Part shown: piece after piece, positions 1,593-1,612 of the stretch
Numbering within the stretch: the stretch's first letter is position 1
Layout: the number at the start of each line of letters is the position of its first letter
Assembly (NCBI RefSeq): GCF_044324785.1
Contig: NZ_CP172127.1
Source of the DNA: Escherichia coli
GTDB taxonomy: Bacteria > Pseudomonadota > Gammaproteobacteria > Enterobacterales > Enterobacteriaceae
Length of the DNA: 64,000 nt
Direction: 5' to 3' (one strand)
The notes under the pieces: generated by a model
Databases searched by the model: none
The model's input: the letters and a program-made list of their open reading frames with translations, nothing else
Told to the model about the DNA's origin: nothing
Program-made: the position numbers and the translations under genes

Positions 1593-1612
1593 GCATTACA
1601 AGAATCATGCCA
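1593..1612 (-). promoter_or_regulatory. Putative sigma-54 (-24/-12) promoter of pspG
   Basis: Minus-strand sequence TGGCATGATTCTTGTAAT fits the TGGCAC-N5-TTGCW class, about 50 bp upstream of the pspG ATG. pspG is known to be sigma-54/PspF dependent. Confidence 0.5.

What the first reader, a model, noticed from the sequence alone, without database searches (positions are those of the whole stretch)
1593..1612. Putative sigma-54 promoter for pspG in the 133-bp dusA-pspG gap
The TGGCAT-N5-TTGTA element is placed appropriately for the pspG start and is consistent with PspF/sigma-54 control of pspG. It is worth confirming because pspG sits far from pspABCDE.
Basis: partly seen in the sequence, partly recalled or inferred. 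Interest (0 to 1): 0.2.

Follow-up and report, generated by a model that had tools for sequence, protein, structure and literature searches.

The report
Known sigma-54 promoter of pspG
The flagged element is the well-characterised sigma-54 promoter of the E. coli membrane-stress gene pspG, with its PspF enhancer and IHF site just upstream, so it is real but ordinary and already described.

Summary
TGGCAT-GATTC-TTGTA lies on the minus strand at 1612..1597, inside the 133-bp gap between dusA (stop 1697..1695) and pspG (ATG 1561). The window is E. coli, and this gap is 100% identical to K-12 MG1655.

- This 17-mer (TTGGCATGATTCTTGTA) is listed as the pspG sigma-54 ChIP-seq site, marked as experimentally confirmed in EcoCyc (PMC4591121).
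- The Salmonella counterpart is bound by sigma-54 (PMC3844500).
- PspF and sigma-54 control of pspG is textbook (Lloyd et al. 2004, cited in PMC3709507).
- The promoter serves as an in vitro model template (PMC4641871).

My own tests agree:
- In 80 orthologous loci chosen only by PspG protein similarity, the motif occurs upstream of pspG in 74 (strict) or 79 (relaxed). It occurs once elsewhere in 505 kb.
- Phylogenetic footprinting resolves four upstream elements: the -24/-12 core, a perfect IHF consensus (1629..1617), the dusA terminator hairpin (1665..1640) and a 31-bp enhancer block (1693..1663).
- A matrix built from that enhancer block picks out the pspA upstream activating (UAS) region and nothing else in the window.
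- No sigma-70-like site lies on the pspG strand in the gap.

Verdict: supported, already known, low interest.

The parts
1597..1612 (-). Sigma-54 core promoter TGGCAT-GATTC-TTGTA. GG at 1611/1610 is -25/-24. GT at 1599/1598 is -13/-12, a GT variant of the usual GC.
   Evidence: Identical to the K-12 sigma-54 ChIP-seq motif OS40 for pspG (PMC4591121). Present upstream of pspG in 74/80 (strict) and 79/80 (relaxed) orthologous loci.
1586..1586 (-). Predicted transcription start (+1), 25 nt upstream of the pspG ATG.
   Evidence: Inferred from -24/-12 geometry. The same position follows from the rule in PMC4591121 (19 bp downstream of the motif centre; distance 25 to pspG). It was not mapped here.
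1617..1629 (-). IHF-consensus site AATCAATAGATTA (WATCAANNNNTTR), 4 bp upstream of TGGCAT.
   Evidence: one of 5 matches in the window. Conserved block in the 80-locus alignment. It lies 4-5 bp from TGGCA in 62 of the 68 loci where the pattern is found. IHF dependence of pspG transcription is recalled from the abstract of Lloyd et al. 2004, which is not held in the library.
1640..1665 (-). Intrinsic terminator hairpin of dusA (ACGCCCTGCG-CACCGT-CGCGGGGCGT), followed by a TTTT tract to 1637. It lies between the enhancer and the IHF site.
   Evidence: Terminator scan. RNA fold gives -19.1 kcal/mol, z = -2.6. A hairpin plus T-run scores in 71/80 orthologous loci, with 75 distinct stem sequences including compensatory changes.
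1663..1693 (-). Upstream activating sequence (PspF enhancer) TTTTCACCAAAAAGTAGTCAAATTCACCACG. It contains three half-site-like elements: TCACCAA, GTAGTC (inverted) and TCACCAC.
   Evidence: Conserved block in the alignment. A matrix built from it scores 48.1 bits here, and the next best position in the window scores 1.3. In the 601-bp pspF-pspA region it scores 16.9 and 12.9 bits at L002 211-249. PMC3709507 states that PspF binds one UAS at pspG.
1566..1572 (-). Ribosome-binding site GGGAGAG of pspG.
   Evidence: Sequence. GGGAGAG is conserved upstream of the ATG in most orthologous loci.
1319..1561 (-). pspG coding sequence (80 aa, stop included).
   Evidence: annotated pspG, envelope stress response protein PspG.
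1695..2732 (-). dusA coding sequence, the upstream gene on the same strand. Its stop TAA is at 1697..1695.
   Evidence: annotated as a 1038-nt dusA.

Best explanation
This is the native sigma-54 (RpoN)-dependent promoter of E. coli pspG, the second promoter of the PspF (phage-shock) regulon.

Proposed mechanism:
1. RNA polymerase carrying sigma-54 binds the -24 GG / -12 GT core at 1612..1597 as a closed complex.
2. The enhancer-binding ATPase PspF binds the upstream activating sequence at 1693..1663, centred about 90 bp upstream of the start.
3. IHF, bound at 1629..1617, bends the DNA so that the PspF hexamer contacts sigma-54.
4. ATP hydrolysis by PspF drives open-complex formation, and transcription starts near 1586, 25 nt before the pspG ATG.
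5. Under non-stress conditions PspA inhibits PspF. Membrane stress releases PspF and induces pspG together with the unlinked pspABCDE operon.

The dusA terminator at 1665..1640 insulates pspG from dusA transcription.

Shown here: the motif, its position, its strong and specific conservation, the IHF consensus, the enhancer block and its cross-match to the pspA region, the terminator, and the absence of a sigma-70-like site.
Taken from the literature on the identical sequence: sigma-54 occupancy, PspF binding and inducibility.
Inferred: the exact start site and the looping geometry.
For: - The motif is on the correct strand at 1612..1597, 51 nt from the ATG.
- The gap is 100% identical to K-12.
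- K-12 sigma-54 ChIP-seq peak OS40 has the motif TTGGCATGATTCTTGTA, lies 25 nt from pspG, and is flagged as experimentally confirmed in EcoCyc. pspG is up-regulated on sigma-54 overexpression (PMC4591121).
- An RpoN holoenzyme gSELEX peak lies in the dusA>pspG spacer (PMC8743547).
- Salmonella pspG has TGGCATGATTTTTGTAAG with 39-fold ChIP-chip enrichment (PMC3844500).
- PspF binds the pspG UAS, there is one UAS, and induction is about 20-fold (PMC3709507).
- The pspG promoter forms sigma-54/PspF-dependent open complexes in vitro and shares -24/-12 elements with pspA (PMC4641871).
- In 80 loci selected only on PspG protein similarity, the strict motif is within 150 nt upstream of pspG in 74 and the relaxed motif in 79. 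Each occurs once elsewhere in 504,714 nt scanned.
- Footprinting shows near-invariant TGGCAYGnTTyTTGTAAT plus conserved IHF and UAS blocks.
- The UAS matrix finds the pspA UAS region at 16.9 and 12.9 bits, and nothing else in the window scores above 1.3.
- The pspA core TGGCACGCAAATTGTA has the same GT at -12.
- No sigma-70-like site lies on the minus strand in the gap.
Against: Nothing substantive.
- The -12 element is GT rather than the consensus GC. This is shared with pspA and conserved, so it is a regulon feature, not a defect.
- The bare motif count in the window (1 observed against 0.59 expected) would not be significant without position and conservation.
- I could not read Lloyd et al. 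2004 or Green & Darwin 2004 directly, because neither is held. The primary evidence for IHF and PspF dependence and for any start-site mapping is therefore second-hand, from citing papers and my memory of the abstract.
- The IHF site sits unusually close to the -24 element (4 bp). At pspA the corresponding gap is about 21 bp.
Confidence: 0.97

Rival explanations
1. The TGGCAT-N5-TTGTA match is a chance occurrence with no promoter function.
For: The degenerate motif is expected 0.59 times per 64-kb window by chance, and 44 of 100 shuffles have at least one match.
Against: The motif is on the correct strand, 51 nt from the ATG, inside a 133-bp gap. It is conserved upstream of pspG in 74-79 of 80 loci across Enterobacterales, against 1 occurrence elsewhere in 505 kb. 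Sigma-54 occupies this exact sequence in vivo.
Confidence: 0.01
2. pspG is mainly transcribed by a sigma-70 promoter in the gap or by read-through from dusA, and the sigma-54 site is only an inactive holoenzyme binding site.
For: PMC4591121 shows that many sigma-54 sites are transcriptionally inactive (abstract). Y. enterocolitica psp has an additional sigma-70 promoter (PMC3041696). Basal pspG expression has to come from somewhere.
Against: No sigma-70-like hexamer pair lies on the minus strand in 1562..1694. A strong, conserved dusA terminator lies upstream of the core promoter. pspG is up-regulated on sigma-54 overexpression and is attributed to PspF. The literature states that pspG transcription requires sigma-54 and PspF (abstracts of PMC3068692 and PMC2763126).
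Confidence: 0.02
3. The 6-nt inverted repeat TGGCAT(1612..1607)/ATGCCA(1596..1591) is the operator of an unknown dimeric regulator overlapping the promoter.
For: A perfect 6+6 palindrome with a 10-bp spacer is visible in the sequence.
Against: The downstream arm is not conserved even within Escherichia (AATACCAG, AAAGCCAA, AATGGCTG), nor in other genera. The upstream arm is conserved because it is the -24 element.
Confidence: 0.01

Closest known systems
E. coli K-12 pspG (yjbO) sigma-54 promoter (Lloyd et al. 2004, J Biol Chem 279:55707; EcoCyc-confirmed; ChIP-seq site OS40 of Bonocora et al. 2015)
   Same: It is the same element. The dusA-pspG intergenic region of the window is 100% identical to MG1655, and the published 17-mer TTGGCATGATTCTTGTA is the sequence at 1613..1597.
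   Different: Nothing. The window comes from another E. coli strain, with a few synonymous or flanking differences outside the gap.
E. coli pspA (pspABCDE) sigma-54 promoter with PspF UAS I/II and an IHF site
   Same: - The same -24/-12 type, with GT at -12: TGGCACGCAAATTGTA against TGGCATGATTCTTGTA.
- The same activator, PspF.
- An IHF consensus lies between enhancer and core.
- The enhancer half-sites are similar in sequence and register: AATTCGCCACTTGTTAGTGTAATTCGCTAAC against TTTTCACCAAAAAGTAGTCAAATTCACCACG.
   Different: - The literature counts two UAS at pspA and one at pspG, with about 100-fold against 20-fold induction (PMC3709507).
- The IHF site is about 21 bp from TGGCAC at pspA and 4 bp at pspG.
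- The pspA enhancer doubles as the operator for divergent pspF. The pspG enhancer abuts the dusA stop codon and overlaps the dusA terminator.
Salmonella Typhimurium pspG (STM4244) sigma-54 promoter
   Same: It is orthologous. TGGCATGATTTTTGTAAG is bound by sigma-54, with 39-fold ChIP-chip enrichment (PMC3844500).
   Different: One base differs in the spacer (C to T). In the S. enterica arizonae and diarizonae loci the 5' leader is about 33 nt longer (L017, L034).

Membership tests
Sigma-54 (RpoN)-dependent promoter | GG at -24 and GC at -12, spaced exactly 10 bp apart, within TGGCAC-N5-TTGCW. | tested here: met
   TGGCAT-N5-TTGTA at 1612..1597. The spacing is exact. The -12 dinucleotide is GT instead of GC, the same variant as in the validated pspA promoter and noted as typical for psp promoters in PMC3041696.
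Sigma-54 (RpoN)-dependent promoter | Correct strand and a short distance upstream of a gene start. | tested here: met
   The motif is on the minus strand like pspG. The predicted +1 at about 1586 is 25 nt from the ATG at 1561.
Sigma-54 (RpoN)-dependent promoter | Selective conservation of the -24/-12 bases in orthologous loci. | tested here: met
   74/80 strict and 79/80 relaxed matches upstream of pspG, against 1 elsewhere in 505 kb. Information content is 1.9-2.0 bits at TGGCA and TTG, while the flanks are variable.
Sigma-54 (RpoN)-dependent promoter | Occupancy by sigma-54 holoenzyme, and rpoN-dependent transcription. | not testable with these tools
   Evidence is from the literature on the identical K-12 sequence: ChIP-seq OS40 with a fold-above-threshold (FAT) score of 15 and up-regulation on sigma-54 overexpression (PMC4591121); a gSELEX peak (PMC8743547); in vitro open complexes (PMC4641871).
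Sigma-54 (RpoN)-dependent promoter | An upstream enhancer (UAS) for a bacterial enhancer-binding protein, about 80-150 bp upstream. | tested here: met
   A conserved 31-bp block at 1693..1663 lies about -77 to -107 from the predicted +1.
PspF regulon promoter (pspA, pspG) | The UAS resembles the PspF-binding sites of pspA. | tested here: met
   A matrix from the pspG-upstream block of 80 loci gives its two top hits (16.9 and 12.9 bits) at L002 211-249. This lies in the pspF-pspA intergenic region, about -90 to -128 from the inferred pspA start. Only the pspG site itself exceeds 1.3 bits in the 64-kb window. The published pspA UAS coordinates are recalled from memory and were not checked against a held paper.
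PspF regulon promoter (pspA, pspG) | An IHF site between UAS and core promoter. | tested here: met
   AATCAATAGATTA at 1629..1617 matches WATCAANNNNTTR exactly and is conserved. pspA has AATCAGATCTTTA at L002 279-291 (by eye). Actual IHF binding was not tested.
PspF regulon promoter (pspA, pspG) | PspF-dependent, PspA-repressed induction by secretin or membrane stress. | not testable with these tools
   Literature only: PMC3709507, PMC3467454 and PMC3041696, all citing Lloyd et al. 2004 and Green & Darwin 2004.

The most novel reading that the evidence does not exclude
The conserved placement of the dusA intrinsic terminator inside the enhancer-to-promoter interval, overlapping the promoter-proximal PspF half-site, may be functional rather than incidental. 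For example, dusA transcription or termination could modulate PspF or IHF occupancy and so set basal pspG expression. Alternatively, the GC-rich palindrome could contribute to the geometry of the IHF-assisted loop.
Probability: 0.07. Interest if true: 0.3.

Novelty: already known. Interest (0 to 1): 0.05.

Why it matters
It matters little as a discovery. [quoted passage not shown]

The useful result is a clean annotation of this window:
- core promoter 1612..1597
- IHF site 1629..1617
- dusA terminator 1665..1640
- PspF enhancer 1693..1663

The 80-locus footprint documents how tightly this architecture, including the GT at -12, is kept across Enterobacterales.

Tried and rejected
- I tried to read the primary papers, Lloyd et al. 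2004 (DOI 10.1074/jbc.M408994200) and Green & Darwin 2004 (PMC451634). Neither is held, so details of primer extension and footprinting could not be checked.
- A literature search for explicit UAS I / UAS II coordinates gave nothing usable. I therefore tested UAS identity by a matrix cross-scan.
- An Rfam scan of 1..3000 at a permissive E-value found only sub-threshold chance hits (CRISPR-DR31 and ctRNA_p42d at the qorA/pspG terminator). No structured RNA family lies in the gap.
- A sigma-70 promoter was considered and rejected. The two consensus-like hits in 1100..1800 are both on the plus strand and outside the gap.
- A plus-strand sigma-54 reading of TGGCAT at 1591..1596 was considered and rejected. 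The -12 position would read GAATC, with no TTGC or TTGT.
- The TGGCAT/ATGCCA palindrome as an operator was considered and rejected, because the downstream arm is not conserved.

Full report
**1. What is in the sequence**

The window is E. coli chromosome. In the first 2.8 kb:
- qorA is on the plus strand (to 1153).
- pspG is on the minus strand (ATG at 1561, stop at 1319; 80 aa).
- dusA is on the minus strand (stop TAA at 1697..1695).

RefSeq annotations of near-identical genomes give the same gene names.

Read on the minus strand, the gap contains TTGGCATGATTCTTGTAATGCC. The element TGGCAT-GATTC-TTGTA occupies 1612..1597. It is the only match to TGGCAYNNNNNTTGYW in the 64-kb window. That count alone is not significant, since 0.59 matches are expected. 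The case therefore rests on strand, position, conservation and published experiments.

**2. Identity with a characterised element**

The stretch from the end of dusA through pspG to the qorA terminator aligns with K-12 MG1655 at 99% identity. The whole 133-bp gap is identical, so experiments on K-12 apply directly.

- Bonocora et al. 2015 (PMC4591121) list ChIP-seq peak OS40 with the motif TTGGCATGATTCTTGTA, plus strand in K-12, with pspG as the downstream gene. The predicted start is 25 bp from the gene, and the promoter is flagged C, meaning experimentally confirmed in EcoCyc. pspG was among only five genes with upstream intergenic sites that were up-regulated on sigma-54 overexpression.
- Shimada et al. 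2021 (PMC8743547) found an RpoN-holoenzyme gSELEX peak in the dusA>pspG spacer.
- Samuels et al. 2013 (PMC3844500) found 39-fold sigma-54 ChIP-chip enrichment at TGGCATGATTTTTGTAAG upstream of Salmonella pspG.
- Mehta et al. 2013 (PMC3709507) state that PspF binds the UAS of both pspA and pspG. They report one UAS and about 20-fold induction at pspG (91.8 centisomes), against two UAS and about 100-fold at pspA (29.4 centisomes).
- Zhang et al. 2015 (PMC4641871) use the pspG promoter as an in vitro template for sigma-54/PspF-dependent open complexes. They note that it shares -24/-12 elements and the start nucleotide with pspA.

All of these cite Lloyd et al. 2004 (J Biol Chem 279:55707) as the original description. 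I could not read that paper. From memory, its abstract reports yjbO/pspG expression driven by sigma-54 RNA polymerase, activated by PspF and IHF, and negatively regulated by PspA.

**3. Independent tests done here**

(a) Conservation. I used the PspG protein alone to collect 80 loci from one genome per species. They span Escherichia, Citrobacter, Salmonella, Enterobacter, Klebsiella, Raoultella, Kluyvera, Leclercia, Lelliottia, Yersinia, Rahnella, Brenneria and others.
- The strict motif TGGCA-N6-TTG[CT][AT] lies within 150 nt upstream of pspG in 74 loci.
- A relaxed form lies there in 79 loci.
- Each form occurs once elsewhere in the 504,714 nt scanned on both strands.
- Anchored on TGGCA, information content is 1.9-2.0 bits at TGGCA, G and TTG, and 1.6-1.9 bits at TA. 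It falls to background immediately downstream.
- The -12 dinucleotide is GT, not GC, almost everywhere. The pspA promoter has the same variant (TGGCACGCAAATTGTA). Huvet et al. (PMC3041696) had already remarked on this for pspA.

(b) Upstream architecture. A MAFFT alignment of -110..+50 resolves four conserved blocks.
- The core promoter.
- AATCAATAGATTA at 1629..1617. This is a perfect IHF consensus WATCAANNNNTTR, one of five in the window. It lies 4-5 bp upstream of TGGCA in 62 of the 68 loci where the pattern is detected. In Yersinia, Rahnella and Brenneria it lies 14-15 bp upstream, one helical turn further.
- A hairpin ACGCCCTGCG/CGCGGGGCGT at 1665..1640 followed by TTTT. The terminator scan flags it. 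It folds at -19.1 kcal/mol. It is kept in at least 71 of 80 loci through many different, mutually compensating stem sequences, while the loop is free to vary. This is the intrinsic terminator of dusA.
- A 31-bp block, TTTTCACCAAAAAGTAGTCAAATTCACCACG, at 1693..1663, starting 1 bp after the dusA stop codon.

(c) Is the 31-bp block the PspF enhancer? I built a position matrix from that block in the 80 loci.
- In the 601-bp E. coli pspF-pspA intergenic region (L002), the two best hits are 16.9 and 12.9 bits. They lie on opposite strands at 211-241 and 219-249. This is about -90 to -128 from the inferred pspA start, where the PspF UAS is expected. The next best score there is -10.4.
- In the 64-kb window, only the pspG site itself (48.1 bits) exceeds 1.3 bits among 127,940 positions.
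- The ungapped pairing AATTCGCCACTTGTTAGTGTAATTCGCTAAC (pspA) against TTTTCACCAAAAAGTAGTCAAATTCACCACG (pspG) shows the same arrangement of half-sites. In Brenneria the central part is a perfect palindrome, GACTAAC-T-GTTAGTC.

(d) Alternatives. No sigma-70-like -35/-10 pair lies on the minus strand in the gap, and the dusA terminator precedes the core promoter. A sigma-70 promoter or read-through is therefore unlikely to be the main source of induced pspG transcription. Rfam finds nothing in the gap.

**4. Mechanism**

Sigma-54 holoenzyme binds 1612..1597 as a closed complex. PspF binds the enhancer at 1693..1663. IHF at 1629..1617 bends the intervening DNA. ATP hydrolysis by the PspF hexamer then opens the promoter, and transcription starts near 1586. 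This gives a 25-nt leader carrying GGGAGAG (1572..1566).

PspA inhibits PspF until membrane stress relieves the inhibition. pspG is thus co-induced with the unlinked pspABCDE operon.

- Shown here: the sequence elements, and their specificity and conservation.
- From the literature: protein occupancy and inducibility.
- Inferred: the exact +1 and the loop geometry.

**5. Comparison and novelty**

This is not merely similar to the known pspG promoter. It is that promoter, base for base. Every sequence-level defining feature of a sigma-54/PspF promoter that I could test was met. The in vivo features are documented in the literature for the identical sequence. Novelty: already known.

The only mildly unexplored point is that the dusA terminator is nested between enhancer and IHF site and overlaps the proximal PspF half-site. 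I rate a regulatory role for this arrangement as unlikely (about 7%) and of modest interest.

**6. Verdict**

The element is already known, and interest is about 0.05.

Noticed in passing
window 1640..1665 (-), T-tract to 1637: The dusA intrinsic terminator hairpin lies inside the pspG regulatory region, between the PspF enhancer and the IHF site. It overlaps the promoter-proximal enhancer half-site (TTCACCACG). The stem covaries across about 75 of 80 orthologous loci. It is absent in the Brenneria and Biostraticola loci.
   Followed up: partly
window 1152..1262 (-): K-12 annotates the small RNA PspH (b4758) in the pspG 3' UTR. By coordinate transfer it maps here, ending at the bidirectional terminator 1161..1183 shared with convergent qorA. 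PspH is reported as an Hfq-dependent sponge of the sRNA Spf, possibly with its own promoter (PMC5145812). Whether the sigma-54 promoter also feeds it was not examined.
   Followed up: partly
window 1591..1612: The -24 element TGGCAT (1612..1607) and ATGCCA (1596..1591) form a perfect 6-nt inverted repeat with a 10-bp spacer around the promoter core. The downstream arm varies even among Escherichia species, so this is probably fortuitous.
   Followed up: yes
L079, L080, L082, L084 (Yersinia, Rahnella, Brenneria), upstream of pspG: In these distant genera the IHF-like site is 14-15 bp from TGGCA instead of 4-5 bp. The difference of about 10 bp is one helical turn, consistent with phase-preserving indels in the loop region.
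   Followed up: partly
L017 and L034 (Salmonella enterica subsp. arizonae / diarizonae): The sigma-54 core lies 84-85 nt upstream of the pspG ATG rather than about 51 nt. A GC-rich insert resembling a REP element (…GTAGACCCGGTAAGCGC…GCCGGGCAAT…) sits in the 5' leader.
   Followed up: no
L028 (Citrobacter werkmanii) and L054, L063, L072: These are natural promoter variants. L028 has TGTCAT at -24 (GG to GT). The other three have TTGAA or TTGGA at -12. They may have weakened or altered pspG promoters.
   Followed up: no
window 2740..4050: An AT-rich region lies upstream of dusA, with a 318-aa ORF on the minus strand (3094..4050). It corresponds to the DUF2713 family protein (yjbM-like) annotated in related genomes. 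It was not examined further.
   Followed up: no
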